Counted from the stretch's first letter, positions 2,996 through 26,178 are shown. The stretch is DNA of 64,000 bases from a virus (IMGVR_UViG_3300028888_000047:160001-224000), one strand, 5' to 3'. A program made the numbers and translations. Notes: a model not told the origin generated them from the sequence alone.

Positions 2996-3169
2996 AGGAA
3001 CGCCCTTTAAGGTCTTGGGAATGACCGTTACAAGTCAGTTACTTGTTCTTCGCTGCTTGCCTTAATAAGAACGGTGCTTCACGCTCCTTGCGGATTTAAC
3101 GCTTCTCCGTTCTCTCTCCAGTCTGATTAATACGAAATTTATGCTTTATTAATCTTGCTGTACGTTCCT
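2996..3169 (-). ncRNA. ACAGCAA-stem RNA, copy A (174 nt, multi-hairpin cargo)
   Basis: AGGAACG-TACAGCAA...CGTTCCT terminal stem; internal helices GATTAATA/TATTAATC, AGAACGG/CCGTTCT, TCC-GCAA-GGA, TTAAGG/CCTTAA, ACAAGT/ACTTGT. Confidence 0.7.
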
Positions 3170-3176
3170 GTGATTG

Positions 3177-3213
3177 TACACCCGGCAGGATTCGAACCTG
3201 CGACCCACTGCTT
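3177..3213 (-). pseudogene. 3' exon of an intron-interrupted tRNA (probably Arg)
   Basis: AA-GCAGT-GGGTC-GCAGG-TTCGAAT-CCTGC-CGGGTGT-A directly after the intron's terminal G. Confidence 0.8.
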
Positions 3214-3935
3214 CATGCTACTCTATGTTACCATAGCTAAAATTATCTTTTCCGCGAGCCTTGATTATATGCACGCGACCGAATTCCACAGTTATTTACT
3301 TCTTGAATCTGATAATTTTATTGTAGTCTGGAGCATATCATTACCATATTGAAATTCTTGCAAGTAATCAACCTCTATTCTGCTATACATCAATGTCATT
3401 CAGCCATAGATTATGATAATTTCAACTTAGGCATTCTTATCAGACACGTCTGAATGGAATGTGAGGGTATTCAATGTATTTCCCTCATTTCTCCTCTATA
3501 CTCTCTACACATTTATGAAAATAAATTGAAAATTGACTATGTTATACCATCGTCTTTTTACATACTTTTGGATATTCTGTATGTTTTTTCAACTTATAAA
3601 TGAGTTAGTAGCGTTTGCATCTACTCTCGCCTGATGCTCATATTTATGCTAAGTGTTTCAACTTAGCGGCTGTCTACTATATAAGAATATAACTCATTTA
3701 CAATGCGAACTAAAATTTTGCGCAAATACCATATTTAGTTTCCTCAATTTGTTATCTCATATATGATAAATTTTAGAAGCATTAATTTCAATTTAGCACG
3801 GTATAATCCTTACACATTATTGGTTAGTGTATCACGCCATTCAGTGCCTTGACTAAATCGTAATCTTCTTCAGGTAGGATTTCCACCGTTTTATGGAGAT
3901 TCTACTATGGGATTTCTCGCCATAGCATCCAATTT
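3214..3935 (-). ncRNA. group I intron (ORF-less, large peripheral insertions) at a tRNA anticodon position
   Basis: Starts CCT^AAATTGG; P element AAAACGGTGGAAA, Q ATACCGTGCT, P3 TCTCC/GGAGA, R TGTAGAGAGTATA, S AATGATATGCTCC, P9 CTATG-GTAA-CATAG, terminal G before the tRNA 3' exon. Confidence 0.85.
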
Positions 3936-3967
3936 AGGTTTTACCATCTACAGGTGTTTTTTTATTG

Positions 3968-4015
3968 TGATGGGACTGGGACTCGAACCCAGATGGACTT
4001 ATTAGGTCCGTCAGT
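3968..4015 (-). pseudogene. 3' fragment of a class II (Leu-like) tRNA
   Basis: CTGAC-GGAC/GTCC variable arm-CTGGG-TTCGAGT-CCCAG-TCCCATC-A; no 5' half upstream. Confidence 0.65.
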
Positions 4016-4032
4016 TTATTTTCCTATTTTTG

Positions 4033-4106
4033 TGGTTCCAGTGGGACTCCAACCCACAACCGCAGTCTTAGAAGGGCCGTGCTCTATGCTGTTGAGCTAT
4101 GGAACC
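4033..4106 (-). tRNA. tRNA-Arg(TCT)
   Basis: Acceptor GGTTCCA/TGGAACC, anticodon loop CTTCTAA; D-loop has GC and T-loop is TTGGAGT (C19-G56). Confidence 0.88.
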
Positions 4107-4114
4107 GATTGGTA

Positions 4115-4912
4115 TTAAACCATATAGAATTTATCTATTTTTTCATTATACCTATAAAACTTACACCCTAGTTCTTCTATTATTTCTTGTTGCCTTATGA
4201 TGTCTCTGTCGCATAAAATATTGTTGTAGACATCAATATAATGCCTTGGTTCATCATATTCAAACGCAATATTTAATTTTTCATCGTATCCATCTAAAAA
4301 ATATCCACGTACTTGTTTTTCTCCGCCATTTTTAGCATGTACAAGATGCCAACCATTCTTTTCATTTAAGAAATCAATGTATTTGCACCCTTTTTCAGAA
4401 AAATGCTCCCCAAATTTTCCGTTTCCAATACTTTTGATGTAATCTATCATTTTTTCCCTTAGAACCTTCTTTGTGGCATTAGTGTGAGGCTTGCCAATAA
4501 CCGTAAATTTGCCATTTTCTAAAGATTTTCTACGAGCATTTGCTTGTTTAAGAATCCGTTCATCGTCCAACATCGTTTTACCTTTGTTCCATACATTGTG
4601 TCCATTACTTTTACCTCCGTTTCCTTTACGATTTGGGCATTTTACTTTGTTTGGATTTAGTTCGCATGCTTTTTCGTGAATACTTAAACACCCAGCATTA
4701 GAAACTACTTTTCCGCAAAATTTACATGTATAAGTATTATCAATACTTGGGTCGTGCTGTTTTACGTTTTTTCTGGCATTTTCTAAATTCTCTAAATGCT
4801 CTTTAATTTTTGGATTATTAGGACAATATGTTACGTGTCCAGCTAATTTACGTTTATCGTTAAACTCTTTTCCACAATGTCTGCAATAATATATTTTTTC
4901 ATTCTCAGCCAT
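4115..4912 (-). CDS. putative homing endonuclease (Zn fingers, NUMOD3-like repeat, Vsr/DUF559-like nuclease)
   Basis: CRHCGK..H...C and CKFCGK zinc fingers, WNKGK and HTNATKKVL motifs, C-terminal YFLDGYDEKLNIAFEYDEPRH...D..RQ. Confidence 0.8.
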   Translation of the reverse strand: MAENEKIYYCRHCGKEFNDKRKLAGHVTYCPNNPKIKEHLENLENARKNVKQHDPSIDNTYTCKFCGKVVSNAGCLSIHEKACELNPNKVKCPNRKGNGGKSNGHNVWNKGKTMLDDERILKQANARRKSLENGKFTVIGKPHTNATKKVLREKMIDYIKSIGNGKFGEHFSEKGCKYIDFLNEKNGWHLVHAKNGGEKQVRGYFLDGYDEKLNIAFEYDEPRHYIDVYNNILCDRDIIRQQEIIEELGCKFYRYNEKIDKFYMV

Positions 4913-4946
4913 ATCTATAATGTATTTTATAATAAATATCAGCCAA

Positions 4947-4972
4947 GTTTGAATAGTTCAGCGGATAGAGCA
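4947..4972 (+). pseudogene. inverted tRNA 5' fragment
   Basis: GTTTGAA-TA-GTTC-AGCGGATA-GAGC-A on the + strand. Confidence 0.55.
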
Positions 4973-4978
4973 AAAAAA

Positions 4979-4999
4979 TATCCCCTGAGCTACGGGTGC
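4979..4999 (-). pseudogene. 5' end of the tRNA whose 3' exon lies at 3177-3213
   Basis: GCACCCG-TA-GCTCAGGGGATA; GCACCCG pairs with CGGGTGT of the 3' exon. Confidence 0.7.
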
Positions 5000-5009
5000 A
5001 TCATATATT

Positions 5010-5165
5010 TTATTGTTTTATTGTTGAGTCTTTCTTAGTGCCATAATCATCATGTAAGAATGGCTCTTTAGGGTCCACCATCTTAGCAATTCTAATTTCA
5101 TGAAAGAAAATCACAAGTGCAACAAAAATAATTATTGCAGAAAAGACCAACAGAAAATTTCCCAT
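5010..5165 (-). CDS. small membrane protein (51 aa)
   Basis: MGNFLLVFSAIIIFVALVIFFHEIRIAK...; downstream of the promoter at 5195. Confidence 0.65.
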   Translation of the reverse strand: MGNFLLVFSAIIIFVALVIFFHEIRIAKMVDPKEPFLHDDYGTKKDSTIKQ

Positions 5166-5229
5166 ATCTATTCTTTATTTATCATTAAACAATACAAATA
5201 TACAAAAAAATATTTAAAAAAAGAAATGT

Positions 5230-5526
5230 TTAACGTAATTTAACACCATAAAATTTCCAACAATAATCAGCGTAATTCATAAGATTGGAATATAGAGTTT
5301 TCCATTCTTCATATGATGGTCTGCCAAAATCTCCATTAGAAGGTATGCTCTTTGCGCGAGCAGCATTACCCGGTTGCATTCTCATTGCTTTTCCTTGTTC
5401 TGGCGTTAAGCCATTAGCTGCATCAGTTTCTTCCCAAGAATGCCATCCATTAGGCGCATTATCTATTTCACAAACTTCTCTTATTACCTTGTTTATTGAT
5501 TCTGTAATGATTTTATTGATATTCAT
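5230..5526 (-). CDS. hypothetical late protein (N-terminal KIITESINK motif)
   Basis: 98 aa; upstream GATATTTAT motif. Confidence 0.7.
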   Translation of the reverse strand: MNINKIITESINKVIREVCEIDNAPNGWHSWEETDAANGLTPEQGKAMRMQPGNAARAKSIPSNGDFGRPSYEEWKTLYSNLMNYADYCWKFYGVKLR

Positions 5527-5553
5527 AATGTTTACTTTTTTTCATTATAAATA

Positions 5554-6330
5554 TCATGGATTTATCGTTTCATTTATTCTTTTCAATGAATATTTAACTT
5601 GTTCTTCAGATATTTCACTTCCAACATATATCGGACATTTTTCAGAAAGAATGCATCCTACCGCTGTTGTACCAGTTCCCATAAATGGGTCGTATACGAT
5701 AAAGTCTTTCGAACCAGCATATAGATTTAGTAATTTTACTACTAATTCACTACTGAATGTGGCTTGATTTAACTTATTGGTTTTTTCATCGTTATTTTTA
5801 GCTTCAACAAAGTTATAGAAAACATTGTAATATGTCTGCTTTGTTTTTTCACTAACTGATGCAACTCCTTTATCTATGAAAAAATCGTTAGTCATTCCAT
5901 CCTTTGCAAATACAAACACATATTCCCAAGTTCTACTAAGTCTACATTTGTTTGCCGGAAACGGTAAGCCACTACTTTTTTTCCAACATATAGTATCAAC
6001 CAATCTCCAATTGGTCTTTTCAACTATCTCAGTTACTAACTTATATGGAAGTGCTGGGTTTTCAATGCTATACCCAAAGTTATATAACACAACCCCATTA
6101 TCAACAACAATCCTATTAAATTCATCGAAAACGTTTTTTGTAAATTCTAGGTATTCTTCCTCTGTCTTCCAATCCTTATAGACATCATATCTACCACTAT
6201 CAGCATAACCGCCTTTACGCTTTGTCATATTGTAAGGAGGACTGGTCAATATAAGATTTATAGACTTGTCCTCCATACGTTTCATAGTGTCGAAACAATC
6301 CTCATTGTATATTGCGTTGAACTCAATCAT
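5554..6330 (-). CDS. N4/N6 DNA methyltransferase (beta class)
   Basis: ILTSPPYN catalytic motif precedes the DPFMGTGTT SAM-binding motif. Confidence 0.92.
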   Translation of the reverse strand: MIEFNAIYNEDCFDTMKRMEDKSINLILTSPPYNMTKRKGGYADSGRYDVYKDWKTEEEYLEFTKNVFDEFNRIVVDNGVVLYNFGYSIENPALPYKLVTEIVEKTNWRLVDTICWKKSSGLPFPANKCRLSRTWEYVFVFAKDGMTNDFFIDKGVASVSEKTKQTYYNVFYNFVEAKNNDEKTNKLNQATFSSELVVKLLNLYAGSKDFIVYDPFMGTGTTAVGCILSEKCPIYVGSEISEEQVKYSLKRINETINP

Positions 6331-6446
6331 AAGTTACTTTGGCTCTTATTATTTATATAAACAAAATTGTCATATGAATATTTATCGCCATGTATTTTTT
6401 TAGCGTTTTCAACAAAGTCTTTTTTAGTTTTTCTTGGTTGCCACAT
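6327..6446 (-). pseudogene. remnant of a homing-endonuclease DNA-binding repeat
   Basis: MWQPRKTKKDFVENAKKIHGDKYSYDNFVYINNK..., truncated after one 'HGDKYDY'-type repeat. Confidence 0.6.
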
Positions 6447-6451
6447 ATATT

Positions 6452-7003
6452 TTATTCAATTTTTTCATCCACAACTGCTATGGTATCATTATGCATTGAA
6501 CCATGAGCAACAAGAAGAATCTCCTTAATCTCACATCCGTATTTCTTGCCAATGCCATTTGTATTCCATCCAAATGTGAGACATACACCACCAGGTTTAA
6601 GTATTCTACTAATTTCTTTCTTTATATCAGTCCAAAACGCTATTGATGTTGACTGATAATCAACTGTCTTACCCAACTTCTTATAACACACCTTAACCTG
6701 GGTAGGAGAGAATGGCGCATCGAAGAGAACCATATCTACAGAATTGTCATCAAACATCTTTAAAAAGTCCTTTGCGTCCAAATGATAATCAGTATCATAT
6801 TGTGGGTCAATATCATTTGTTATCGTTCCATTTTTATTGGAGTTTGCAAATGGGTCTAAAATGATAGCATTTTCTGGTAATTTAGCTTTGTATTTATCGA
6901 TTAGTTCTTTAAATGGCTTTATTGAAAATGTGTTTTTATTGGGCATTGCCCATGTTCTCCTAAGTATTACTCCATCTTCATCGATTGTTTTAAATTCAGG
7001 CAT
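6452..7003 (-). CDS. small adenine-specific DNA methylase-like protein
   Basis: WAMPNKNTFSIKP, ILDPFAN, VLFDAPFS (DPPY variant), RILKPGG. Confidence 0.8.
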   Translation of the reverse strand: MPEFKTIDEDGVILRRTWAMPNKNTFSIKPFKELIDKYKAKLPENAIILDPFANSNKNGTITNDIDPQYDTDYHLDAKDFLKMFDDNSVDMVLFDAPFSPTQVKVCYKKLGKTVDYQSTSIAFWTDIKKEISRILKPGGVCLTFGWNTNGIGKKYGCEIKEILLVAHGSMHNDTIAVVDEKIE

Positions 7004-7034
7004 TAAATTTAATAATTTACATATATTATTTTAG

Positions 7035-7116
7035 TACACCCGGTGAGACTCGAACTCACACGCCTCGCGACACTACATCCTTAGTGTAGCCTGTCTACCA
7101 ATTCCAGCACGGGTGC
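7035..7116 (-). tRNA. tRNA-Leu(AAG)
   Basis: Class II cloverleaf; anticodon arm CTACA-CTAAGGA-TGTAG; discriminator A. Confidence 0.9.
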
Positions 7117-7155
7117 TTTTATATAATATAGTAAATTAAAAGATGGAGTCAATAA

Positions 7156-7584
7156 TTAGCAGCCTCCTCCTCCACATCTTCCACGAGAAAAAATTCCGCC
7201 ACAGCCTCCTCCGGTGCCACAAGATGCGCTTCTATTTCCGCTTCCACCACATCCGCCATATGACTGACGAGTATCAAAAAAACTTCCTCCCCCACAATCG
7301 CCATACGAAGGTGCTACACGTTGTCCGCAGCTACCGTATGTTTTTCCGCCGCAACTACCTAAAATTGGACTTCCATATACAGGTCTATATTCGTCTCTAT
7401 GGTTTCCGTGTGGCATTACTCCTAAATATGGGTCAATATCAGGTTCTTCATTATCATCTGTTGGATAATCAAATTCTCCTGAATTGTCTCTTCTAAATAC
7501 TATACCACGTCTTTCCAATGCTTCTCTTAAAGCTTCTGACAAACCATTGATGTCATCTGAATCAATAAATAGTAACTTACTCAT
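7156..7584 (-). CDS. hypothetical protein with Gly/Cys-rich repeated C-terminus
   Basis: Acidic N-terminus followed by repeated xCG(G) motifs. Confidence 0.75.
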   Translation of the reverse strand: MSKLLFIDSDDINGLSEALREALERRGIVFRRDNSGEFDYPTDDNEEPDIDPYLGVMPHGNHRDEYRPVYGSPILGSCGGKTYGSCGQRVAPSYGDCGGGSFFDTRQSYGGCGGSGNRSASCGTGGGCGGIFSRGRCGGGGC

Positions 7585-7590
7585 AGTTAT

Positions 7591-8610: not shown

Positions 8611-8692
8611 ATTTAAAAAATTAATATTTGTCCAAAGATACACAAAAAAATCAATATGAACAAATATTTTTAGTTAAAAAAAGTTAAATGAA

Positions 8693-9091
8693 TTAAGGCT
8701 TTTTAAACACTTCAGCCCCATCGAATAAATCTCCAACATATAGTTTATTAACATCAATACTTTGCTTGATGCCATCATATTTAAACATTATGTTGAGATT
8801 ATCATCCTTTACATTAACAGTAACTTCTGACCAATCGTCTGCTGCAAGGTCATCTTGCTGCGGGGACCATCCAGTCATTACATTTTTTTGGAGTTTATCG
8901 TATTTGCATAAAACCTGTTCGGCCTTTACTTCTCCACCATTTACATCAGCGAGCATTTTTAATATTGGGTCTTTACACCATTCTGATTTAACGCTTGCCT
9001 TTGGCTTGAGCCAAATGAATATTCCACTCCAAGATATTCTTGAAACAAAACCACCTTCCTCCAAAATCTTGTAACATTCTCCAAATTTCAT
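8693..9091 (-). CDS. DUF2829 / Tad2-like (Thoeris anti-defence sponge) protein
   Basis: MKFGECY..L..G..VSR..W.G.FIWL ... GWSPQQDDLAADDW signature. Confidence 0.78.
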   Translation of the reverse strand: MKFGECYKILEEGGFVSRISWSGIFIWLKPKASVKSEWCKDPILKMLADVNGGEVKAEQVLCKYDKLQKNVMTGWSPQQDDLAADDWSEVTVNVKDDNLNIMFKYDGIKQSIDVNKLYVGDLFDGAEVFKKP

Positions 9092-9323: not shown

Positions 9324-9338
9324 TTTCGGTTTTATCAT

Positions 9339-9489: not shown

Positions 9490-9494
9490 TGTTG

Positions 9495-9961: not shown

Positions 9962-10984
9962 TTACTGCAAAGTCTTGACAATAGCTGAACGTCCGGTCTC
10001 AGGATTGACTCCCTTACCCTCAAAGCTATTTACCTTCACGCCACGATTTGTCAAATAATCAGCAACTGCCTTTGCTCTCTTCTCAGACAACTTCTGATTA
10101 AATGCAGCAGTACCTTCCTTAGATGCTGTAGCTGTTACATCAACAATTGCATCGTTTCCAATCTGATTAAGAATGTACTTAGCCTCAGGAGAAAGAACTG
10201 CACTACCTGTGGTAAATGTAACCATCCAAACCTCATTTGCCGTTGCAACTGTTGCAGTTTCAACCGTCTTAACTTCAACAACCTTTTCGATTACCTTTGG
10301 CTTACGGCTCTCACACTCTGAAAGTGCGCCATTCAAGCGGTCAATCTCACTAATCATAGCGCCTATGTCATAAGTCTTGAAGTGGTGTGTTCCATTGCTT
10401 GTCTTGAAGTGGTACACATAAGAAACATTCAATGCAAACTGTGCGTTGTGCTTATTGAACTGCAACGCACCAAAATTGCGCAAGTTCCAATAAATAGCGG
10501 GAGTAAAAACAATTGAATGAGCCTTTTTCTTACCAAGATTAAACGCAAGGTCAAGACCAGTTTTACCCGTCAAACTATTGGATGATGTGTTCCACGTATG
10601 AAGCCAACCAATACCACCAATTGCGCTAACCTCAAACACGCGAGGGAAACCCTTATAGCCCCACAAGGCATTAGAAATGTTAAATACGCCATTAGCGCCA
10701 ACATTAGTTGCCTTTACGGCCGTTTTAATGTCTGAGAAATGGTTGTCATTAAGAACAACTAAGCCCTCTAACTGAGCGCCAAAAACAGGGGTGAAATCCT
10801 TCTGCAACTTAATACCTACATTTGTGTTCAAAGGGAACACACTGTTAAAATCAAGAGGAGTAGAAACACCTGCTGTGATTCCGAAGCTAATGTTGTCAAG
10901 CGCATTACTATTCTCAGTAGCAATCTGCGCATTAGCACTTACTACGCCCAACATAAGGGCAAAAATAAACATTAATTTCTTCAT
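9962..10984 (-). CDS. ompA: OmpA family outer membrane protein (Bacteroidales type)
   Basis: Signal peptide, beta-barrel N-terminal domain, C-terminal NQKLSEKRAKAVADYL peptidoglycan-binding motif. Confidence 0.9.
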   Translation of the reverse strand: MKKLMFIFALMLGVVSANAQIATENSNALDNISFGITAGVSTPLDFNSVFPLNTNVGIKLQKDFTPVFGAQLEGLVVLNDNHFSDIKTAVKATNVGANGVFNISNALWGYKGFPRVFEVSAIGGIGWLHTWNTSSNSLTGKTGLDLAFNLGKKKAHSIVFTPAIYWNLRNFGALQFNKHNAQFALNVSYVYHFKTSNGTHHFKTYDIGAMISEIDRLNGALSECESRKPKVIEKVVEVKTVETATVATANEVWMVTFTTGSAVLSPEAKYILNQIGNDAIVDVTATASKEGTAAFNQKLSEKRAKAVADYLTNRGVKVNSFEGKGVNPETGRSAIVKTLQ

Positions 10985-11054
10985 TTTTTTTTCTAATTTT
11001 TTAATTACAATTTTTATTTTATTATAATTTAAAACAATAAATACTACTTTAAAA

Positions 11055-11121
11055 GGGAACGCCTATTGAAGTTATCGCAATCAGAAATATGTTACAAATG
11101 TAAAATTTGCTGTACGTTCCC
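11055..11121 (-). ncRNA. ACAGCAA-stem RNA, copy B (67 nt)
   Basis: GGGAACG-TACAGCAA...GG-CGTTCCC. Confidence 0.65.
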
Positions 11122-11130
11122 ATATATTAA

Positions 11131-11466
11131 TTATGCCTTTGAAATCTTATATTCGTAGGAATAACCTTTAGATTTAGTACCATCTTTTTCGTCGATGTCT
11201 ACAATCTTGTAATGTTCCATCTTACAGTTAAAGCCTCTACGTTTAATGGTTTTTTCTATAAGTTCAATTCCATCATAGCAATATTGAAATTTTCTACTTA
11301 CAATAGGAATTACCAATGTGCTTGGTGGGTCCGTATCAAGTTTTCCCTTCTTTCCGTCTATAAGCCCATAGAATTCAAGCTTATTCATTATAATACCCAA
11401 AAAACATAAGGTATAAGCAGGAAAATCTACCGTTTCCTTTGTGTTCTTTTCATAAACATGTGCCAT
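11131..11466 (-). CDS. hypothetical protein
   Basis: 111 aa ORF. Confidence 0.7.
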   Translation of the reverse strand: MAHVYEKNTKETVDFPAYTLCFLGIIMNKLEFYGLIDGKKGKLDTDPPSTLVIPIVSRKFQYCYDGIELIEKTIKRRGFNCKMEHYKIVDIDEKDGTKSKGYSYEYKISKA

Positions 11467-11505
11467 ATAAACACTATTTTTAAAATTAATACTTTCGTTA
11501 AAAAT

Positions 11506-11620
11506 AAGGAGTCATTTTAAACCCGATAGTGTTAGATTCGAACCAACGACCTCTTGGTAAAATCCAAGGCTCTAACCAACTGAGCTAACTCCCGCAGTAA
11601 ATTTTGCTGTTAGACTCCTT
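11506..11620 (-). ncRNA. ACAGCAA-stem RNA, copy C (linear pseudo-tRNA cargo)
   Basis: AAGGAGTC-TAACAGCAA...D-arm GCTCAGTTGGTTAGAGC, CTTGG-ATTTTA-CCAAG, T-arm GTTGG-TTCGAAT-CTAAC...GACTCCTT. Confidence 0.75.
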
Positions 11621-11630
11621 GTATATATAA

Positions 11631-11776
11631 CCTGACTGCGTGAAGGGATTATAGGATTAGTTCTACCCTCAGATAGGGGAGGCTTCTTATGTGGGTTTTC
11701 AAATCAATCAGATGTCCCACAGCCGTTCTATACATTTACTATCAAACCACTTGCTATTACTTACACGCCTCAGCGG
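11631..11776 (-). ncRNA. candidate rod-like ncRNA (possibly 6S-like)
   Basis: Terminal helix CTGA-GGCGTG/CACGC-AGTCAG, inner helices TATAG/CTATA, GGCT/AGCC, GTGGG/CCCAC; no ORF. Confidence 0.45.
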
Positions 11777-11784
11777 TTAAATTG

Positions 11785-11857
11785 TCGGGGTGACAGGACT
11801 CGAACCTGCGACCACATCATCCCAAATGACGCATTCTACCGACTGAACTACACCCCG
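11785..11857 (-). tRNA. tRNA-Pro(TGG)
   Basis: Acceptor CGGGGTG/CACCCCG, anticodon loop TTTGGGA. Confidence 0.92.
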
Positions 11858-11863
11858 AAAATT

Positions 11864-11987
11864 AGGAAACATTTAAAAATTAGCTGGCGCTCTAAACCTA
11901 CTGAGCTATATGCCGTAGCATAAGTGGATTCGAACCACTGGCCTCCTGCTTGGAACAATTTTTTTAGTTCTTTGCTGTGAGTTTCCT
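11864..11987 (-). ncRNA. ACAGCAA-stem RNA, copy D: circularly permuted tRNA mimic (YrlA/Y-RNA-like)
   Basis: AGGAAAC-TCACAGCAA...GCAGG-AGGCC-[T-arm AGTGG TTCGAAT CCACT]-[closed acceptor TATGC TACG GCATA]-TA-[D-arm GCTC AGTAGGTTTA GAGC]-G-CCAGC...GTTTCCT. Confidence 0.85.
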
Positions 11988-12001
11988 TGTTAATATCTAT
12001 G

Positions 12002-12009
12002 CAAATATA
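12002..12009 (-). promoter_or_regulatory. Bacteroidota -7 promoter box driving copy D and downstream RNAs
   Basis: TATATTTG about 15 nt upstream of the RNA stem. Confidence 0.75.
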
Positions 12010-12068
12010 CAAAAAAACATTTTAATAACAAAATAATATATGTTAAAAAATGTTAAATTATATCTTAA

Positions 12069-12154
12069 TGGTTGGCGTTGGTGGACTCGAACCACCCGTG
12101 GAATTAACCAGAAGATTTACAGTCTTCCCCGATGCCATCTCCGGTCACACGCCA
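12069..12154 (-). tRNA. tRNA-Tyr(GTA), U1-A72, encoded CCA
   Basis: Anticodon arm GAAGA-CTGTAAA-TCTTC, long variable arm, acceptor TGGCGTG/AACGCCA-A-CCA. Confidence 0.88.
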
Positions 12155-12158
12155 ATGT

Positions 12159-12434
12159 TTATTTTTCTTTTTTAAATCTTTCTATATCATCATTCAGAAT
12201 ACCTTTTCCTCTTTTAAGATAGCTTTCAATTTCAGTTTTTTCTTCAGGAGATATTGTAGCATCTTTAAGCGCCTTTTCAAATGAATCGATGTATGATAGG
12301 CTTTTTTCCGCATCTTCTATTGTCCTTATATTGTCAGAACTAATTAAAGATACAAGGAACATATATTTTACCTGTCTATTTTCACATATCTTATCAATAT
12401 CCTCTCCTGTAATGGTAAATTTTTTCTCTTCCAT
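12159..12434 (-). CDS. hypothetical protein
   Basis: 91 aa ORF. Confidence 0.7.
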   Translation of the reverse strand: MEEKKFTITGEDIDKICENRQVKYMFLVSLISSDNIRTIEDAEKSLSYIDSFEKALKDATISPEEKTEIESYLKRGKGILNDDIERFKKEK

Positions 12435-12460
12435 AACTTGTTTTTTTTTATTTCAAAAAT

Positions 12461-12510
12461 AAGGGAACATTTTTTAAACGTTGTTCTACCAACTGAACTA
12501 CCCCTACATC
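12461..12510 (-). pseudogene. 3' remnant of a permuted (copy D-type) ACAGCAA-stem RNA
   Basis: GTAGGGG-TA-GTTCAGTTGGTAGAAC-A...AAAAAAT-GTTCCCTT: D-arm followed by the closing-stem 3' strand, the same order as in copy D. Confidence 0.55.
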
Positions 12511-12511
12511 T

Positions 12512-12982
12512 TTATACTTTCATTTCAACTTCTTCCCACTCTTCTTTTTCTTGCTTATGAATTGGAAAAAGTGTTCTCATTCTTATTAACAATGATAGCC
12601 AATCTCCATTATCTGCGTCAAAGCCAAACTTATCATCAATGCCTATATTGAAATAGAGTTTACCATCATAATTGCCCAATTTATCATTTTGTACCTCCGG
12701 ATTTTCGTTGATATAATCAAACTTAATACCGTTAGCTTTAAACACTTCTATGTATTTGTCTATTTTATCTTTATAAGAAGAAGTCCACAGTATAAGTGAA
12801 ATTTTTTTGTTATTGGTCATAAACTGTAATGCTTCTTTTGCTCCAATAAGCCACTCATATTTTTCTTCTTTTTCGTAACTGGGTCTAAATATTGTGTTAT
12901 GAATATCAACCAACACATATATCTTTTCCCATTTCTTTTCTTTCATACGTTTGTATGCAAAATCTAATGATGTTTCAATCAT
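12512..12982 (-). CDS. HAD-superfamily hydrolase-like protein
   Basis: VDIHNTI motif I variant, LILWTS, INENPE, IDDK. Confidence 0.75.
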   Translation of the reverse strand: MIETSLDFAYKRMKEKKWEKIYVLVDIHNTIFRPSYEKEEKYEWLIGAKEALQFMTNNKKISLILWTSSYKDKIDKYIEVFKANGIKFDYINENPEVQNDKLGNYDGKLYFNIGIDDKFGFDADNGDWLSLLIRMRTLFPIHKQEKEEWEEVEMKV

Positions 12983-13229
12983 GAATTGTCCAAAGTCTAT
13001 TTGTTAATGGATGCCAATCATCTTTTTCAGTTTGGAAATAATAATAACTTCCATTCACTTCAGATGTATATTCTCCAACATCTACTAATATAGTTTCGCC
13101 ACTATAATTAAAATAACATCCTTTTGAGTTGTCTAATTTCAAAAGTTTAACTGTTGGAAAATCTCTCATATGCAACATTGTGCCACTCTTAAGAGATGGC
13201 CAATCAACTGCTGTAACTTTTGCTGACAT
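12975..13229 (-). CDS. hypothetical protein
   Basis: 84 aa ORF overlapping the next start. Confidence 0.7.
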   Translation of the reverse strand: MSAKVTAVDWPSLKSGTMLHMRDFPTVKLLKLDNSKGCYFNYSGETILVDVGEYTSEVNGSYYYFQTEKDDWHPLTNRLWTIHD

Positions 13230-13246
13230 AATAAAAATTAATTTTG

Positions 13247-13318
13247 TAGTCGGTACGAGATTCGAACTCGTATGGCAAGAATGAAAATCTTGAATCCTAG
13301 CCCTTAGATGAACCGACC
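13247..13318 (-). tRNA. tRNA-Glu(TTC)
   Basis: Acceptor GGTCGGT/ACCGACT, anticodon arm CAAGA-TTTTCAT-TCTTG. Confidence 0.92.
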
Positions 13319-13324
13319 ATTTTT

Positions 13325-13383
13325 AGGAAACTCTTTTTTGGTACGGAATTTGCAGTTCTGTGAAAATTTGCTGTAAGTTTCCT
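13325..13383 (-). ncRNA. ACAGCAA-stem RNA, copy E (anticodon stem-loop cargo, GCA)
   Basis: AGGAAACT-TACAGCAA-ATTTTC-ACAGAA-CTGCAAA-TTCCGT...AGTTTCCT. Confidence 0.7.
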
Positions 13384-13467
13384 TGTTCATATATAAGCCT
13401 ATGAAAAACACTATACAAATATACAAAAAATATTTGATAAACAAAAATTATTATTGTTAAAAAATGT

Positions 13468-13501
13468 AAAAAGGTGAATAATCGCGTAGATTATCCACCT
13501 T
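13468..13501 (-). terminator. intrinsic terminator (attenuator candidate)
   Basis: AAGGTGGATAATC-TACGC-GATTATTCACCTT-TTT. Confidence 0.75.
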
Positions 13502-20984: not shown

Positions 20985-20985
20985 A

Positions 20986-21225: not shown

Positions 21226-21227
21226 AT

Positions 21228-22262: not shown

Positions 22263-22263
22263 G

Positions 22264-22644
22264 TTATTCTTTATATAATATTTTTTTTAAACCATCTATA
22301 TATTCTTTTTCTTCATGAGTAGTCATTTCTCCATAAACTATTTTTTCACCAATTGTTTTCATCTTTTTACTGAGCATAGACCAAAAATCGAACTTTTCTT
22401 TAGTTTTTTCCCAATCAAAAGAATCATTTATGAAAAGATAAAACGTATTTATTAATTTTTCTTCTTCAGACAAAAAATTTCCGCTAAATCTTATTTGTAC
22501 ATAATTCTCTACAAATTTATTAAAACTTAAACCGCTATAACAATGTGACACTCCATATCTTTCCAACTTTTCAAAATTGGCGAAATATGCTCTATAAACT
22601 CCGTTATCCTTTAATATTCTAACGAAAACATCTTTAAAATTCAT
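22264..22644 (-). CDS. hypothetical protein (LKxxGxY...F.W..T....FW family)
   Basis: ILKDNGVYRAYF...SFDWEKTKEKFDFW. Confidence 0.75.
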   Translation of the reverse strand: MNFKDVFVRILKDNGVYRAYFANFEKLERYGVSHCYSGLSFNKFVENYVQIRFSGNFLSEEEKLINTFYLFINDSFDWEKTKEKFDFWSMLSKKMKTIGEKIVYGEMTTHEEKEYIDGLKKILYKE

Positions 22645-22663
22645 AACACAAAGATAACAAAAA

Positions 22664-22691
22664 AACGTGGAATAACCAAATATTCCACGTT
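22664..22691. repeat. palindromic terminator overlapping a promoter; identical copy at about 35223, variant at about 17595
   Basis: AACGTGGAATA-ACCAAA-TATTCCACGTT. Confidence 0.7.
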
Positions 22692-22708
22692 AAATTATGT
22701 TAAAAACA

Positions 22709-22945
22709 CTAATTTTCTTCCTTTTCAAGAGTTTTTGGGTGGAAAATAAGTTGCCTAAGTTCAGGAGATTTTTCAAGTACATCAAGTCTGCGTAGCTCAA
22801 TTATTTTTTTGTTGTCAGACACATACTTTCTTGTTTCACACCACGTCTTTAGATTCGTAGTAACCGGTGATATTGCTCCAAAGAAAACAGCAGCAACAAA
22901 ACAAATAACAAATACTGTTGCCCAAATCAAATTTATCATAACCAT
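22709..22945 (-). CDS. small membrane protein
   Basis: N-terminal transmembrane segment. Confidence 0.7.
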   Translation of the reverse strand: MVMINLIWATVFVICFVAAVFFGAISPVTTNLKTWCETRKYVSDNKKIIELRRLDVLEKSPELRQLIFHPKTLEKEEN

Positions 22946-22958
22946 AAATCCAACAATT

Positions 22959-24245
22959 TTAACAACAAGTGATTAACGTATAATCTTTCTTACCCTTTTG
23001 CAACAGCAAATACTTACCATTGATAAGATTTGCATCAGTTACAAGTTCCTTCTCATTAACCTGCTTTGTCTTGTTAATGGAGAAACCATTGCTCTTGATT
23101 AGTTTTCTTGCCTCAGACTTTGAAGGAACTTTATCGTGCATTGCTGCAAGGTCAATAACAGTAACACCACTTGTGAACTGCTCCTTATTAACCTCGACGG
23201 TTGGAACACCATTCATTGCTGCCAAGAATGTCTTTTCATCCAACTTTTCAATGTCAGCCATTGTTCCCTTCCCAAAAAGAATTTCAGAAGTTTCAACAGC
23301 CTTGTTGTATTCTTCCTCAGAGTGAACAAGACAAGTCATATATTTCGCAAGAGTAGACTGCAATAAACGCTTCTCAGGTACTTCCCTGTGTTGCTCAATT
23401 AGTTTGTTAATTTCATCAATATCAATCAACGTGAACAGTTTTATGAAACGTTCAGAATCAGCGTCGCTTTGATTAAGCCAAAACTGATAGAACTCATAAG
23501 GGGTGGTTTTTTTAGCATCCAACCAAATATTACCCTTTTCCGACTTGCCAAATTTAGAGCCATCAGCTTTAGTTACAAGTGGCCAAGTAAGAACGCATGC
23601 ATCGTCCTTTTTCAGCATCTTATGAATAAGTTCAATACCTGTTGTTCCATTTCCGTACTGGTCACTTCCTCCAATTTGAAGTTTACAATTGTATTTTCTG
23701 TAAAGTTCAACAAAATCATTGCCTTGAATGAGCTGATATGTAAATTCTGTAAAAGACATTCCGCTGCCCTCGCGTTCCAAACGCTTTTTCACAGAATCCT
23801 TTGCCATCATATAATTCACAGTAATACATTTACCAACCTCACGGGCGAAATCAATGAAAGACATATTTTTCATCCAATCATAATTGTTGACCATAATTGC
23901 AGCGTTTGGCGCTGTAGAATTAAAATCTAACAACTTGGAAACTTGCGAACGAATTCCTTCGACATTATGAGCAACCGTTTCTGGGCTTAAAAGTTTACGC
24001 TCTTCAGATTTGAATGAAGGGTCGCCAATAAAGGCTGTGGCTCCGCCAAGCAAAACAATAGGCTTATGACCATGTTTTTGTAAAAGTTTTGCTGTTGTAA
24101 AGGCCAACAAGTGTCCTAAATGAAGGCTATCCGCCGTTGGGTCTGTTCCAACGTAGAAAGTTGTTGGTTTACTAAGCAACTCAACGAGGTTGCCTGATTT
24201 GCTTGCGATAAGCCCTCTAAATTCAAGTTCTTCTAATAGTGTCAT
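22959..24245 (-). CDS. tyrS: tyrosine--tRNA ligase
   Basis: DPTADSLHLGH (HIGH), GGSDQYGN, KFGKS (KMSKS), C-terminal S4 domain. Confidence 0.97.
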   Translation of the reverse strand: MTLLEELEFRGLIASKSGNLVELLSKPTTFYVGTDPTADSLHLGHLLAFTTAKLLQKHGHKPIVLLGGATAFIGDPSFKSEERKLLSPETVAHNVEGIRSQVSKLLDFNSTAPNAAIMVNNYDWMKNMSFIDFAREVGKCITVNYMMAKDSVKKRLEREGSGMSFTEFTYQLIQGNDFVELYRKYNCKLQIGGSDQYGNGTTGIELIHKMLKKDDACVLTWPLVTKADGSKFGKSEKGNIWLDAKKTTPYEFYQFWLNQSDADSERFIKLFTLIDIDEINKLIEQHREVPEKRLLQSTLAKYMTCLVHSEEEYNKAVETSEILFGKGTMADIEKLDEKTFLAAMNGVPTVEVNKEQFTSGVTVIDLAAMHDKVPSKSEARKLIKSNGFSINKTKQVNEKELVTDANLINGKYLLLQKGKKDYTLITCC

Positions 24246-24258
24246 TTTTTATGCTAAT

Positions 24259-24432
24259 TTAATTTACAGATTCAATTGGTATTTTAGGTTTGCAAATCAT
24301 TTGCAGCACAAGATTATCCATTTCAACGCTTGTTAATCCAAAACGCTTTTTCTCCTTCATACAGCCACTCTTATTGCAGCATTTTCCTTTGTTCTTGTGC
24401 TTTTTATGCCTTTTCTTGTAGAAAAACATCAT
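24259..24432 (-). CDS. small basic hypothetical protein (57 aa)
   Basis: MMFFYKKRHKKHKNKGKCCNKSGC...; after the promoter at 24461. Confidence 0.5.
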   Translation of the reverse strand: MMFFYKKRHKKHKNKGKCCNKSGCMKEKKRFGLTSVEMDNLVLQMICKPKIPIESVN

Positions 24433-24573
24433 GTCAACTTCTTTTAATCAATGTATAGTGCAAAGATACAAAAAAAATAGCAAAAAAAGAATTTTTTTAT
24501 GTTAATTAAACTTAAAAATGAGCAGCACCTCACGATGCTGCTCATTTATTTTCAGTACACTATGGCATCATTC

Positions 24574-26178
24574 TTATACCGTAATATAAGAAAGAATTTC
24601 TTGTCCAAGGGCAGTATTAATCATTTCCTCCATAGTAGGCTGCTTCTTTTCAACAGCTTCCTTTTCAGCCATTTCTCCACCAAGAAGTAGAGAAACAATA
24701 CTTCCATCAAAGCCACTAAAGAAATAACACCCGCTATTTTCAATTGTTGCAGGAACGTCTTGCGTTCTGCCTGTCACCTGCCACCAAATGAACTTCATAT
24801 CATCAACAAACTCCTTCGGAAACACCTCGTAAAATTCAGCCTTCATCCTCTCGTAGTTTGTCTCAGCATTACCATTCACAGGGTTAAATTGCATGTCTGA
24901 CACCACCAACAAGGTTTGTGGAAAATCTTTCAACGGAATTTCGGGATGTTCTTTTCTAATCCTAACAATTTCTTGAACAATGCTTTGGAAGTTGGTTCCG
25001 CCCCAGGCAGTTTTTGTGTTCACAATATCCGAAATCATATCACAGAATCCGCCTTCAAGCTGTTTAACACGTGATATATTATCGAACATAATGACATTCT
25101 TGTGGAATGCACCAGTATTGATTGTTGAGAAAAATACGCCAAGTGATATACAAATATCATAAGCTGTAATGTTTCCAACAACACTTGTGGTCATTGAACT
25201 GCTGGTGTCTAGAGCGCACCACACATTTCCAAGGATATTGCCATCTTCAACAGCCTTCTTAACAAGTTCGTCGAACTGCTTATCAATGGTGATTTTCTTG
25301 AACAATGGAAGATTGTTTGCCCTAGGGCTCCAACCACCTGACATAACCTCTTTTGCCAACTCATACACATAGCCTGTATACTTAACAGTTGGCTGTGCCA
25401 ATACCCATTCAGTATAACCCTTTTCAAGCTCATGCTTTGACAAGAACTTCTGCGAAGCAATCTTGCTAAGAGCACGTCCTGGAATAAGATTCCAATTAAT
25501 GTCCTTATAACGGCCACTACAAATAAGCTTTTGGAAATCGTGTGCTGTACCACTTGTCTTCAGCTTATTATAGTCCTTATAAGCCATACCGTTATAATTG
25601 GCATACTCACGCGCAAGTGAATTGGTAATTTGTGTCCAATCAGTTGTACACTTCGTATTGGTCTTAATACGAGGCATAAACTTCTTGATGAGCTCCATAT
25701 GAGCGCCACACTTCAGACCCTGATTAATAAGGTCAAAGATAACCTCATGATTGATGGCGTTTGTCTTAAATGTGATGTCATAGAACATCAATGTCCACAG
25801 GTCTTTCCATGAGCCTACCAATGGCAGAGCCCAAATATTCTTATAGAAAGAATCGGGCTGATTTACAGCAATCCACAATAGGCGCTTAAAGGCTTCATCA
25901 CGAACGCCTTGTCCTTTTTGTACCTTCTCGGTAACGTTGTCGTTATTGACCTTAACCTTACGTGTTACCATACGAAGGTAGAATGGGAAACGAAGAGCTT
26001 GTTCTGGATTCTCAATCCACAAAGCCTCTTGCTCCTTAAATACGGCGTTTATATCACGGCCTCGATAGTTTGCAGCCTTACCAAATTGGTCTACCAATAC
26101 GCTACCTGTACTCTTGTAACTTACAGCTCCATTCTCGGTTAGCGCAAAGTTGTTAAAATCGTACTTAAACTTTTCCAT
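24574..26178 (-). CDS. DUF2828 family (Ro60/TROVE-like helical ring + vWA) protein
   Basis: N-terminal TENGAVSYKSTGS, GQGVR, GSWKDL, KFMPR; vWA MIDAS DTSSSM, WGGTNF, VSDMQF, SGF. Confidence 0.85.
   Translation of the reverse strand: MEKFKYDFNNFALTENGAVSYKSTGSVLVDQFGKAANYRGRDINAVFKEQEALWIENPEQALRFPFYLRMVTRKVKVNNDNVTEKVQKGQGVRDEAFKRLLWIAVNQPDSFYKNIWALPLVGSWKDLWTLMFYDITFKTNAINHEVIFDLINQGLKCGAHMELIKKFMPRIKTNTKCTTDWTQITNSLAREYANYNGMAYKDYNKLKTSGTAHDFQKLICSGRYKDINWNLIPGRALSKIASQKFLSKHELEKGYTEWVLAQPTVKYTGYVYELAKEVMSGGWSPRANNLPLFKKITIDKQFDELVKKAVEDGNILGNVWCALDTSSSMTTSVVGNITAYDICISLGVFFSTINTGAFHKNVIMFDNISRVKQLEGGFCDMISDIVNTKTAWGGTNFQSIVQEIVRIRKEHPEIPLKDFPQTLLVVSDMQFNPVNGNAETNYERMKAEFYEVFPKEFVDDMKFIWWQVTGRTQDVPATIENSGCYFFSGFDGSIVSLLLGGEMAEKEAVEKKQPTMEEMINTALGQEILSYITV

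What the first reader, a model, noticed from the sequence alone, without database searches (positions are those of the whole stretch)
2996..26178. Candidate phage Ro60/Y-RNA-like system: ACAGCAA-stem RNA family with interchangeable cargoes plus a DUF2828-vWA protein
Seen in sequence: five minus-strand elements (2996-3169, 11055-11121, 11506-11620, 11864-11987, 13325-13383) and a 3' remnant (12461-12510). Each intact copy has a 7-8 bp terminal stem whose sequence co-varies (AGGAACG/CGTTCCT, GGGAACG/CGTTCCC, AAGGAGTC/GACTCCTT, AGGAAAC/GTTTCCT, AGGAAACT/AGTTTCCT), followed within 1-2 nt by an invariant unpaired ACAGCAA. The interiors are unrelated: a multi-hairpin domain, a short loop, a linear pseudo-tRNA, a circularly permuted tRNA and a lone anticodon stem-loop. 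All lie in the tRNA island, and two have their own Bacteroidota promoter. Established: Y RNAs are modular, with a conserved terminal stem bound by Ro60/Rsr (TROVE+vWA) and a variable effector domain that in YrlA mimics tRNA. Inference: the 534-aa DUF2828/vWA protein at 24574-26178 is a Ro60-like ring that binds the stem-ACAGCAA handle, giving a set of RNPs for tRNA repair, decoying anti-tRNA defences or RNA decay. The handle does not resemble the canonical Ro-binding helix as I recall it, so this may be an undescribed family; no Rfam check was run.
Basis: partly seen in the sequence, partly recalled or inferred. Interest (0 to 1): 0.92.

Follow-up and report, generated by a model that had tools for sequence, protein, structure and literature searches.

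The report
Phage Ro60-like protein with Y-RNA-like partners
A 317-kb phage carries small RNA genes that share a short "handle" (a 7-8 bp stem next to ACAGCAA), some with tRNA look-alike bodies, plus a protein with the ring shape of the RNA-quality-control protein Ro60; the same RNA-protein pair sits side by side in unrelated phages, bacteria and an archaeon, so it is probably an undescribed relative of the Ro60/Y RNA particle.

Summary

**RNA elements**
- All five elements and the 3' remnant lie at the stated coordinates, on the minus strand (5 found; 0.175 expected from shuffles).
- The whole genome has 11 copies. Every [AG]GG-N4-N1-2-ACAGCAA site on that strand has a perfectly complementary 3' arm.

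**Protein**
- The protein at 24574-26178 matches Pfam DUF7788, and DUF2828 weakly. Its model is confident (pLDDT 92).
- The best structural matches are Ro60 structures over the whole length (Z 19.6, against 10.9 or less for vWA-only hits). The MIDAS motif is intact. It does not match Pfam TROVE.

**Link between the two**
- In 78 viral DUF2828 loci, stem+ACAGCAA occurs 87 times on the gene's strand and 3 times on the other. In distant phages it is often 60-500 nt from the gene, in tandem arrays.
- This holds where no tRNA gene is within 10 kb, and no other gene is a constant neighbour.
- A covariance model built from those distant RNAs finds window elements 13325-13383 and 11055-11121. It also gives 47 hits, all on the gene's strand, in 72 bacterial DUF2828 loci it was not trained on, including Veillonella isolates.

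**Status**
- No Rfam family or paper I could find describes this. Binding and function are untested.
- This scan reached the same reading earlier on neighbouring windows of this genome.

The parts
2996..3169 (-). Handle RNA 1. Stem AGGAACG/CGTTCCT, then ACAGCAA, then a 140-nt multi-hairpin cargo. It ends 8 nt before tRNA-Arg(ACG).
   Evidence: Sequence. Fold z -3.57. The cargo is conserved, with some compensatory changes, in two related phages. No Rfam match.
11055..11121 (-). Handle RNA 2, short form. Stem GGGAACG/CGTTCCC, then ACAGCAA. It starts 9 nt after the stop codon of ORF 11131-11466 and is followed by a T-run.
   Evidence: Model R1, built from distant DUF2828-adjacent RNAs, hits 11049-11125 at 27.5 bits, E 5.7e-4.
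11506..11620 (-). Handle RNA 3. Stem AAGGAGTC/GACTCCTT, then ACAGCAA, then a linear pseudo-tRNA cargo with a 6-nt anticodon loop.
   Evidence: ARAGORN tRNA-??? with anticodon 'tt'. Rfam tRNA 41 bits. Sequence.
11864..11987 (-). Handle RNA 4. Stem AGGAAAC/GTTTCCT, then ACAGCAA, then tRNA-like cargo in YrlA order (T arm, acceptor closed by a UACG loop, D arm). It ends 6 nt before tRNA-Pro.
   Evidence: The Rfam YrlA model hits 11886-11946 at 25.8 bits over model positions 24-84.
13325..13383 (-). Handle RNA 5, short form. Stem AGGAAACT/AGTTTCCT, then ACAGCAA. It ends 6 nt before tRNA-Glu.
   Evidence: R1 hits 13320-13386 at 35.7 bits, E 6e-6, the best hit in the window.
12461..12510 (-). 3' remnant of a permuted-tRNA-type handle RNA: D arm, A-rich strand and 3' arm GTTCCCT. 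The 5' half is displaced by ORF 12512-12982.
   Evidence: Alignment with the 3' parts of three intact copies. Sequence.
24574..26178 (-). 534-aa Ro60-like protein (DUF2828/DUF7788): a helical-repeat ring plus a C-terminal vWA domain with an intact MIDAS motif. It has its own Bacteroidota-type promoter and a terminator hairpin.
   Evidence: Pfam. PHROG 850 'RNA-binding protein', E 4.7e-51. AF2 pLDDT 92.3. Foldseek and VIA-align against Ro60. MIDAS residues D324/S326/S328 are invariant; T395 and D428 are also conserved. Flanks.
12002..12032 (-). Bacteroidota-type promoter (TTTG ... TATATTTG) about 14 nt upstream of handle RNA 4.
   Evidence: Read from the sequence. The consensus TTTG/TAnnTTTG is from my own knowledge of Bacteroides promoters; no tool tested it.
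13416..13445 (-). Bacteroidota-type promoter (TTTG ... TATATTTG) about 32 nt upstream of handle RNA 5.
   Evidence: Read from the sequence. Same caveat as for the other promoter.
2912..2987 (-). tRNA-Arg(ACG) directly downstream of handle RNA 1. RNase P cleavage at its 5' end would set the RNA's 3' end (inference).
11784..11857 (-). tRNA-Pro(UGG) directly downstream of handle RNA 4.
13246..13318 (-). tRNA-Glu(UUC) directly downstream of handle RNA 5.

Best explanation
The elements are genes for small non-coding RNAs of a Y-RNA-like kind. Each has a terminal 7-8 bp stem of free sequence, followed on the 5' strand by unpaired ACAGCAA and faced by an A-rich 3' strand. This 'handle' is most likely the binding site of the Ro60-like ring protein encoded at 24574-26178 (DUF2828/DUF7788 plus vWA).

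The variable interior is an effector module: a tRNA mimic with a sealed acceptor and no anticodon loop, a pseudo-tRNA, a multi-hairpin domain, or almost nothing. This parallels YrlA (tRNA-like) and YrlB (short) on bacterial Ro60.

In this phage the RNA genes sit inside tRNA operons or just behind Bacteroidota promoters, 6-8 nt upstream of tRNAs. Ordinary tRNA end-processing (RNase P downstream, 3' trimming upstream) would therefore release them as discrete RNAs in step with tRNA production.

Shown here: the RNA family, its covarying stem, the protein's Ro60-like fold, and the tight same-strand genomic linkage of the two across very different genomes.

Inferred: direct binding. Also inferred is the role, by analogy with Ro60/Y RNA: the ring surveys or hands over misfolded or damaged RNAs, here probably tRNAs, and the cargo recruits tRNA-recognising enzymes or host exoribonucleases.
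For: **Fold**
- AF2 model pLDDT 92.3.
- The Foldseek top 12 PDB hits are all Ro60/TROVE, with 544-619 aligned columns.
- VIA-align: Z 19.6, rmsd 4.0 A over 422 residues against 1yvr; Z 15.4 against phage phiLo Ro60; Z 14.4 against Rsr. vWA-only hits score 10.9 or less.
- A profile of the family hits Ro60 first among all PDB sequences, E 1.8e-4.
- The MIDAS motif is invariant.
- PHROG 850 is annotated 'RNA-binding protein'.

**Linkage**
- In 78 IMG/VR DUF2828 loci (26-79% identity, GC 24-56%), stem+ACAGCAA occurs 87 times on the gene's strand and 3 on the other. 104 control permutations of the 7-mer average 7.9.
- In distant loci the elements lie 60-500 nt from the gene, often in tandem arrays of 2-4.
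- They are adjacent even where no tRNA gene lies within 10 kb.
- No other ORF family is shared by more than 2 of 29 such loci.
- Replicate in GTDB genomes: 28 against 5.
- Model R1, on 72 loci it was not trained on, gives 47 hits at E 0.01 or better, all on the gene's strand. Every full-length Veillonella locus searched has one, about 290-350 nt upstream of the gene, at 21-26% protein identity.
- R1 finds the two short window elements as its only significant hits in 64 kb.

**Structure**
- 11 of 11 sites in the genome have the 3' arm.
- An eighth pair that was not used for selection is a standard pair in 25 of 25 sequences.

**Y-RNA parallel**
- Permuted tRNA-like cargo occurs here and in distant loci. 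It matches the YrlA model's tRNA-like module at 38.2 and 25.8 bits.

**Whole genomes**
- All six complete or near-complete DUF2828 phage genomes examined carry at least one element.
- The phage also encodes RtcB, a CCA-adding enzyme and two RNA ligases.
Against: - There is no binding or expression data.
- In this phage and its close relatives the RNAs are 11 kb or more from the protein gene, not adjacent. Here the link rests on co-presence in the genome and on family identity with the adjacent RNAs of distant genomes.
- One 29.7-kb phage record, scored complete, carries a single element behind a promoter but has no DUF2828 gene and no tRNA.
- Some DUF2828 loci show no element within 10 kb: L172-L175, and most loci from relatives of this phage at 47-59% identity.
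- The handle bears no resemblance to the Ro60-binding motif.
- The protein fails Pfam TROVE, so binding cannot be carried over from Ro60 by homology of the contact residues.
- Phages lacking DUF2828 were not sampled, so absence of the motif outside DUF2828 genomes is not shown.
Confidence: 0.75

Rival explanations
1. The elements are spacers of tRNA operons. The clamp stem and ACAGCAA guide host or phage RNases, or insulate neighbouring tRNAs from misfolding. They have no partnership with the DUF2828 protein.
For: In this genome most copies lie between tRNAs, with arms 3-14 nt from tRNA or tmRNA ends. The nearest copy is 11 kb from the protein gene.
Against: The same handle lies next to DUF2828 genes in loci with no tRNA within 10 kb. 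It occurs in a tRNA-free phage. In Veillonella and other bacterial loci it is always on the gene's strand. Tightly packed tRNA arrays of a related phage need no such spacers.
Confidence: 0.08
2. The handle is a cis-acting binding site, not a trans-acting RNA. The Ro60-like protein binds it in its own mRNA leader or trailer and in tRNA precursor transcripts, to autoregulate or to chaperone processing. No stable Y-like RNP forms.
For: Single copies sit 60-350 nt upstream of the gene in several lineages, for example Veillonella, L145, L167 and L103. One copy lies in an mRNA leader in a small phage.
Against: Tandem arrays of 2-6 copies lie downstream of the gene. Copies carry elaborate conserved cargo (tRNA mimics, the 140-nt domain). 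Some copies have their own promoter. All of these fit independent RNA genes better.
Confidence: 0.1
3. The elements are miniature mobile elements, or debris of tRNA-gene rearrangement, with terminal inverted repeats. The link to DUF2828 reflects shared mobility.
For: There are many copies with unrelated interiors, one truncated remnant, and the pair moves between unrelated genomes.
Against: Arms differ between copies yet are always complementary within a copy, with G-U pairs tolerated. All copies have strict strand polarity relative to transcription. The invariant ACAGCAA occurs on one arm only. No transposase or target duplications were seen.
Confidence: 0.03

Closest known systems
Bacterial and mycobacteriophage Ro60 (Rsr) with YrlA/YrlB Y RNAs (Rfam RF02553; Chen et al. 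2014, PMC4201824)
   Same: A ring protein with a C-terminal vWA domain. Small RNAs whose 5' and 3' ends pair in a terminal stem, with a short conserved motif on the 5' strand. One RNA class carries a tRNA-like module in the order T arm, closed acceptor, D arm; another class is short. RNA genes lie on the same strand next to the protein gene (here, in distant relatives).
   Different: The protein is DUF2828/DUF7788, not Pfam TROVE, with about 11% identity to Ro60 in structural alignments. The handle motif is ACAGCAA, not GNCGAAN0-1G. The YrlA model scores at most 38 bits against a threshold of 69. In this phage the RNAs are dispersed in tRNA operons, in many copies (11) and with more kinds of cargo.
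Ro60 of Thermus phage phiLo with Yrl1/Yrl2 (PDB 9KOP, 9L5Y; PMC12135203)
   Same: A phage-encoded Ro60-fold protein (Z 15.4-17.2 to the model) with phage-encoded partner RNAs close to the gene. Proposed use of host RNA-decay enzymes.
   Different: phiLo's RNAs carry the canonical CGAA motif and lie directly upstream of the gene. The phiLo protein was retrieved from UniProt as a Ro60 homolog, whereas this protein fails Pfam TROVE. There, binding has been shown by experiment; here it has not.
Metazoan Ro60/Y RNA particle (PDB 1YVP, 1YVR)
   Same: This is the best structural match of the protein (Z 18.5-19.6). The RNA plan is modular: a protein-binding stem and a variable loop.
   Different: Metazoan Y RNAs have no tRNA-like module. 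The stem motif and RNA biogenesis differ (Pol III transcripts with a La-bound U tail).
Circularly permuted tRNA genes of red algae and some archaea
   Same: The gene order is 3' half followed by 5' half of a tRNA.
   Different: Those are processed through a circular intermediate into working tRNAs. Here the acceptor is sealed by a tetraloop and there is no anticodon loop, so no decoding tRNA can result.

Membership tests
Ro60/Rsr (TROVE + vWA) proteins | Closed ring of alpha-helical (HEAT-like) repeats capped by a C-terminal vWA domain | tested here: met
   AF2 pLDDT 92.3. Foldseek top 12 hits are all Ro60/TROVE. VIA-align Z 19.6, 422 residues, rmsd 4.0 A, spanning residues 8-503.
Ro60/Rsr (TROVE + vWA) proteins | MIDAS motif (DxSxS ... 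T ... D) in the vWA domain | tested here: met
   D324, S326 and S328 are invariant. T395 and D428 are at least 90% conserved in 95 homologs and invariant in the 31-sequence subset.
Ro60/Rsr (TROVE + vWA) proteins | Sequence membership in Pfam TROVE (PF05731) | tested here: not met
   The Pfam scan returns only DUF7788 and a weak DUF2828 match. There is no TROVE match anywhere in the genome at E 1 or better.
Ro60/Rsr (TROVE + vWA) proteins | Binds Y RNA on the outer ring surface and single-stranded RNA ends in the central hole | not testable with these tools
   Needs EMSA, RIP or a structure. Only genomic linkage was shown.
DUF2828/DUF7788 (PF11443/PF25043) | Scores above the Pfam gathering thresholds | tested here: met
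   PF25043: 69.7 bits against a cut-off of 27.1. PF11443: 25.6 bits against 29, just below, but many close homologs carry both.
YrlA Y RNA (Rfam RF02553) | Covariance-model score at or above the gathering threshold (69 bits) | tested here: not met
   25.8 bits at 11886-11946. 38.2 bits for the copy at genome 157680-157790. Weak YrlA hits are also common in control genomes.
YrlA Y RNA (Rfam RF02553) | Conserved Ro-binding motif GNCGAAN0-1G near the 5' end (PMC4201824) | tested here: not met
   The invariant motif is ACAGCAA in all copies.
YrlA Y RNA (Rfam RF02553) | tRNA-like module: T arm, closed acceptor-like stem, D arm | tested here: met
   Present in 11864-11987 and the remnant in the window, in two further genome copies, and in distant loci. 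Absent from the short forms.
YrlA Y RNA (Rfam RF02553) | Encoded within about 4 kb of the Ro60 gene on the same strand | tested here: inconclusive
   In this window the strand is the same but the distance is 11-23 kb. In distant DUF2828 loci it is met, at 60-500 nt.
Circularly permuted tRNA genes | An open acceptor junction with processing sites and an intact anticodon arm, so that a functional tRNA can be made | tested here: not met
   The acceptor is closed by a 4-6 nt loop. The anticodon arm is replaced by the strands leading to the handle.

The most novel reading that the evidence does not exclude
DUF2828/DUF7788 proteins and ACAGCAA-handle RNAs form a second, so far unrecognised lineage of Ro60/Y-RNA-type particles. 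It is spread across phages, many bacterial phyla and at least one archaeal MAG. Large phages have multiplied the RNA genes inside their tRNA operons and fitted them with tRNA mimics, to survey, repair or shield their tRNA pool during conflict with the host. That would also point to an RNA partner for the uncharacterised members of Pfam DUF2828; that this family also occurs in eukaryotes is from my memory and was not checked here.
Probability: 0.6. Interest if true: 0.85.

Novelty: new variant of a known kind. Interest (0 to 1): 0.78.

Why it matters
Ro60 and Y RNAs are a classic RNA-surveillance particle, and what the Y RNA modules do, especially the tRNA mimic, is still unclear. This finding offers:
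- A function for a widespread domain of unknown function.
- A new RNA family that is absent from Rfam.
- A natural series of handle RNAs with exchangeable cargo in one genome.
- Cultured bacteria (Veillonella species) that carry the gene-RNA pair, so protein-RNA binding and the role of the tRNA-like module can be tested directly.

It also adds a likely RNA-based layer to how very large phages manage their own tRNA sets.

Tried and rejected
- **Near-identical phages.** Megablast of the tRNA island against GenBank phages found nothing.
- **Locus search with the 95-sequence alignment.** It had no stretch conserved enough. A 31-sequence alignment worked.
- **A conserved RNA next to the protein gene in this window.** The flanks hold only a promoter and a terminator hairpin.
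- **Known RNA families, including self-cleaving ribozymes.** The window scan at gathering thresholds returned only tRNAs. Permissive (E-value) scans of the two element regions (window 10900-13500 and 2850-3300) added only chance-level hits and a sub-threshold YrlA match. Seven distant loci with arrays also returned only tRNAs.
- **Genome-wide YrlA scanning as a detector.** Rejected as too noisy. Junctions of adjacent tRNAs score, and 13 of 14 control genomes give weak hits.
- **Permuted tRNA genes that mature into tRNAs.** Rejected because the acceptor is sealed and there is no anticodon loop.
- **A third gene as the real partner.** No ORF family is shared by more than 2 of 29 loci.
- **tRNA islands as the hidden cause of the linkage.** Rejected by the tRNA-free loci.
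- **Circularity of the stem criterion.** My regex selects for perfect stems, so covariation counted on the seven selected pairs is circular. I rely instead on the 11 of 11 tally, the unselected eighth pair, the permutation and strand controls, and the model's hits on untrained loci.
- **Long-cargo copies.** The covariance model does not detect them.

Full report
**What the window is.** The window is bases 160001-224000 of a single 317,464-bp virus record (32% GC, estimated 95% complete). ARAGORN finds 37 tRNA genes and a tmRNA in the genome. The window also encodes a tyrosyl-tRNA synthetase, IF3 and a sigma factor. Elsewhere the genome encodes RtcB, a CCA-adding enzyme and two RNA ligases. The promoters read in the sequence are of the Bacteroidota type, TTTG ... 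TAnnTTTG (the consensus is from my own knowledge).

**The observation.** All five elements are at the stated coordinates on the minus strand. Each has a 7-8 bp terminal stem and ACAGCAA 1-2 nt after the 5' arm.
- A scan for a perfect 7-bp stem, a 0-3 nt gap and ACAGCAA finds 5 on the minus strand and none on the plus strand. Dinucleotide shuffles give a mean of 0.175 and a maximum of 2 in 200.
There are 11 copies in the genome, all on the minus strand.
- Without using the 3' arm as a criterion, all 11 distinct minus-strand sites matching [AG]GG-N4-N1-2-ACAGCAA have a perfectly complementary arm within 400 nt. The only plus-strand site has none.
- The arms differ between copies at four positions, always with compensation.
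- The remnant at 12461-12510 aligns with the D arm, A-rich strand and 3' arm of the intact permuted-tRNA copies. Its 5' half has been displaced by an ORF.
- The only detail I could not support is a 'lone anticodon stem-loop' in 13325-13383, where folding predicts nothing but the terminal stem.

**Cargo.**
- Element 11864-11987 and two copies outside the window carry a T arm, an acceptor stem closed by a small loop, and a D arm, in that order. The strands that would form the anticodon stem lead to the handle. This is the layout of the tRNA-like module of YrlA. The Rfam YrlA model matches that module at 25.8 bits here, and at 38.2 bits over its full length in the copy at genome 157680-157790. 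Both are well below the threshold of 69, and the match is limited to the tRNA-like part.
- Element 11506-11620 is a linear pseudo-tRNA with a 6-nt anticodon loop.
- The 140-nt interior of 2996-3169 is conserved, with a few compensatory changes, in two other phages and matches no Rfam family.
- The shortest copy in the genome is 45 nt, so the handle alone is the constant part.

**Position.** Most copies lie between tRNA genes. Their 3' arms are 5-9 nt upstream of a tRNA, or 14 nt upstream of the tmRNA. Several have their 5' arm 3-7 nt after the preceding tRNA. Two follow a promoter directly. I infer that RNase P and 3'-end trimming of the flanking tRNAs would release them as discrete RNAs. This is not shown.

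**The protein.** The 534-aa product of 24574-26178 matches Pfam DUF7788 (E 2.9e-19) and, just below threshold, DUF2828. It does not match TROVE, and the genome has no TROVE gene. PHROGs places it in family 850, labelled 'RNA-binding protein'.
- An AlphaFold2 model made with 95 homologs is confident: pLDDT 92.3, pTM 0.91.
- Foldseek's 12 best PDB matches are all Ro60/TROVE structures, aligned over the full length.
- VIA-align gives Z 19.6 (422 residues, rmsd 4.0 A, model residues 8-503) against Xenopus Ro60, 15.4-17.2 against the Ro60 of Thermus phage phiLo, and 14.4 against Deinococcus Rsr. The best vWA-only match scores 10.9.
- A profile of the family finds Ro60 first among all PDB sequences, E 1.8e-4, in the vWA part.
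- The MIDAS residues are invariant.

So this is a Ro60-shaped protein from a sequence family distinct from TROVE.

**Do the RNA and the protein belong together?** In this phage they are 11-23 kb apart, so the window alone cannot say. I therefore collected DUF2828 genes from elsewhere.

*Viral contigs.* I took 78 loci with 10-kb flanks, at 26-79% identity to the window protein and 24-56% GC.
- Stem+ACAGCAA occurs 87 times on the strand of the gene and 3 times on the other. The 104 permutations of the 7-mer average 7.9 for both strands together, and the highest are shifted versions of the same motif.
- In loci at 30-47% protein identity, the elements lie 60-500 nt before or after the gene. They are often in tandem arrays of 2-6, with stems of unrelated sequence but the same ACAGCAA.
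- About ten of these loci have no tRNA gene within 10 kb.
- In 29 loci with adjacent elements, no other ORF family is shared by more than two. DUF2828 is therefore the only constant neighbour.
- Longer elements in these distant loci again carry permuted tRNA-like cargo.

*Bacterial and archaeal genomes.* An independent collection of 75 loci gave 28 on the gene's strand against 5.

*Covariance model.* I built a model (R1) from 25 short elements of these other DUF2828 loci (24 at 47% protein identity or less, and L179 at 58%).
- The seven selected pairs are complementary by construction. An eighth, unselected pair is a standard pair in 25 of 25 sequences, and sliding the partner columns destroys pairing.
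- In the 64-kb window, R1's only significant hits are 13320-13386 (35.7 bits, E 6e-6) and 11049-11125 (27.5 bits, E 5.7e-4).
- On 72 genome loci that did not contribute to the model, it gives 47 hits at E 0.01 or better, all on the gene's strand. Every full-length Veillonella locus searched, cultured type strains among them, has one about 290-350 nt upstream of a gene only 21-26% identical to the phage protein.

*Whole genomes.* Every complete or near-complete DUF2828 phage genome I examined has at least one element. The window's genome has 11. Three 400-kb relatives have several each. Two more distant ones (52-58% identity) have one each, again next to a tRNA or the tmRNA.

**Against.**
- One 29.7-kb record with terminal repeats has a single element in an mRNA leader, but no DUF2828 gene and no tRNA.
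- Some DUF2828 loci show nothing within 10 kb.
- I could not sample genomes that lack DUF2828 without bias.
- Nothing here shows physical binding or expression.

**Interpretation.** The best-supported reading (about 0.75) is a Ro60/Y-RNA-like particle in which the DUF2828 ring binds the stem+ACAGCAA handle and the interior is an exchangeable effector.
- What the particle does is inference from the Ro60 literature: surveillance of misfolded RNAs, and tethering of exoribonucleases by the Y RNA (PMC4201824, PMC12135203).
- It is also inferred from context. DUF2828 genes are often embedded in phage tRNA islands, the cargo mimics tRNA, and this phage carries RNA-repair enzymes.
- I consider tRNA quality control or repair, or recruitment of tRNA-recognising or RNA-decay enzymes, the most likely roles. 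I cannot choose between them.
- The rivals are a pure processing spacer, a cis-acting site, and a mobile element. Each explains part of the pattern and is weakened by the controls above.

**Comparison and novelty.**
- The system works like Ro60 with YrlA/YrlB. It fails two defining membership tests for these families: Pfam TROVE for the protein, and both the GNCGAA-type motif and the Rfam threshold for the RNA.
- I found no paper on DUF2828 function, and none linking such a protein to partner RNAs.
- Rfam 15 has no matching family.
- I class it as a new variant of a known kind.
- Earlier agents of this scan came to the same reading from neighbouring windows of this genome. I took from them the lead to look at distant DUF2828 loci, and tested it independently as described.

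Noticed in passing
window 12073-12154 (-): A long-variable-arm tRNA with anticodon GUA (Tyr) that ends in CCA. ARAGORN misses it; the Rfam tRNA-Sec model scores it 32.4 bits, below threshold. The phage's own TyrRS gene is at 22959-24245.
   Followed up: no
window about 3175-3260 (-): Directly upstream of handle RNA 1 there is a stretch with a perfect T arm and an acceptor-like 3' strand. No tool calls it a tRNA. It may be another non-canonical tRNA-like RNA.
   Followed up: no
window 8693-9091 (-): This ORF matches the Pfam Tad2-like (Thoeris anti-defence 2) domain, E 1.4e-10. It lies among the tRNA genes.
   Followed up: no
window 22959-24245, 27039-28004, 28010-28537 (-): Phage-encoded tyrosyl-tRNA synthetase, a sigma-70-type factor and translation initiation factor IF3 flank the Ro60-like gene.
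   Followed up: partly
L079 10431-10483 (G010, IMGVR_UViG_3300021400_000803, 29.7 kb with terminal repeats): A small phage record scored complete, with no tRNA and no DUF2828 gene. It carries one handle element 37 nt after a Bacteroidota-type promoter, in the leader of a small membrane-protein ORF. It may use a partner protein supplied in trans, or the handle may have another role there.
   Followed up: partly
L227-L252 (Veillonella species, e.g. V. atypica ATCC 17744, V. tobetsuensis, V. rogosae), about 290-350 nt upstream of the DUF2828 gene: Cultured Veillonella strains carry a distant DUF2828 homolog (21-26% identity) with one handle RNA upstream on the same strand. This gives a tractable system for experiments.
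   Followed up: partly
L222 5855-5978 (Candidatus Woesearchaeota MAG): Two tandem handle elements lie directly upstream of a DUF2828 homolog on a contig binned to an archaeon. Whether the contig is viral was not checked.
   Followed up: no
genome 121423-121519, 147543-147632, 148502-148587, 229770-229858 (outside the window): ARAGORN calls unusually long tRNAs here: Cys 97 nt, Met 90 nt, Trp 86 nt, Gln 89 nt. They may have extra arms or insertions.
   Followed up: no
L082 11880-12200 (G008): In a 355-kb relative, the single variant handle element lies directly after a large structured RNA that ends in a T arm, an acceptor strand and CCA. That RNA is probably the tmRNA. In the window's genome a handle element lies directly before the tmRNA.
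   Followed up: no
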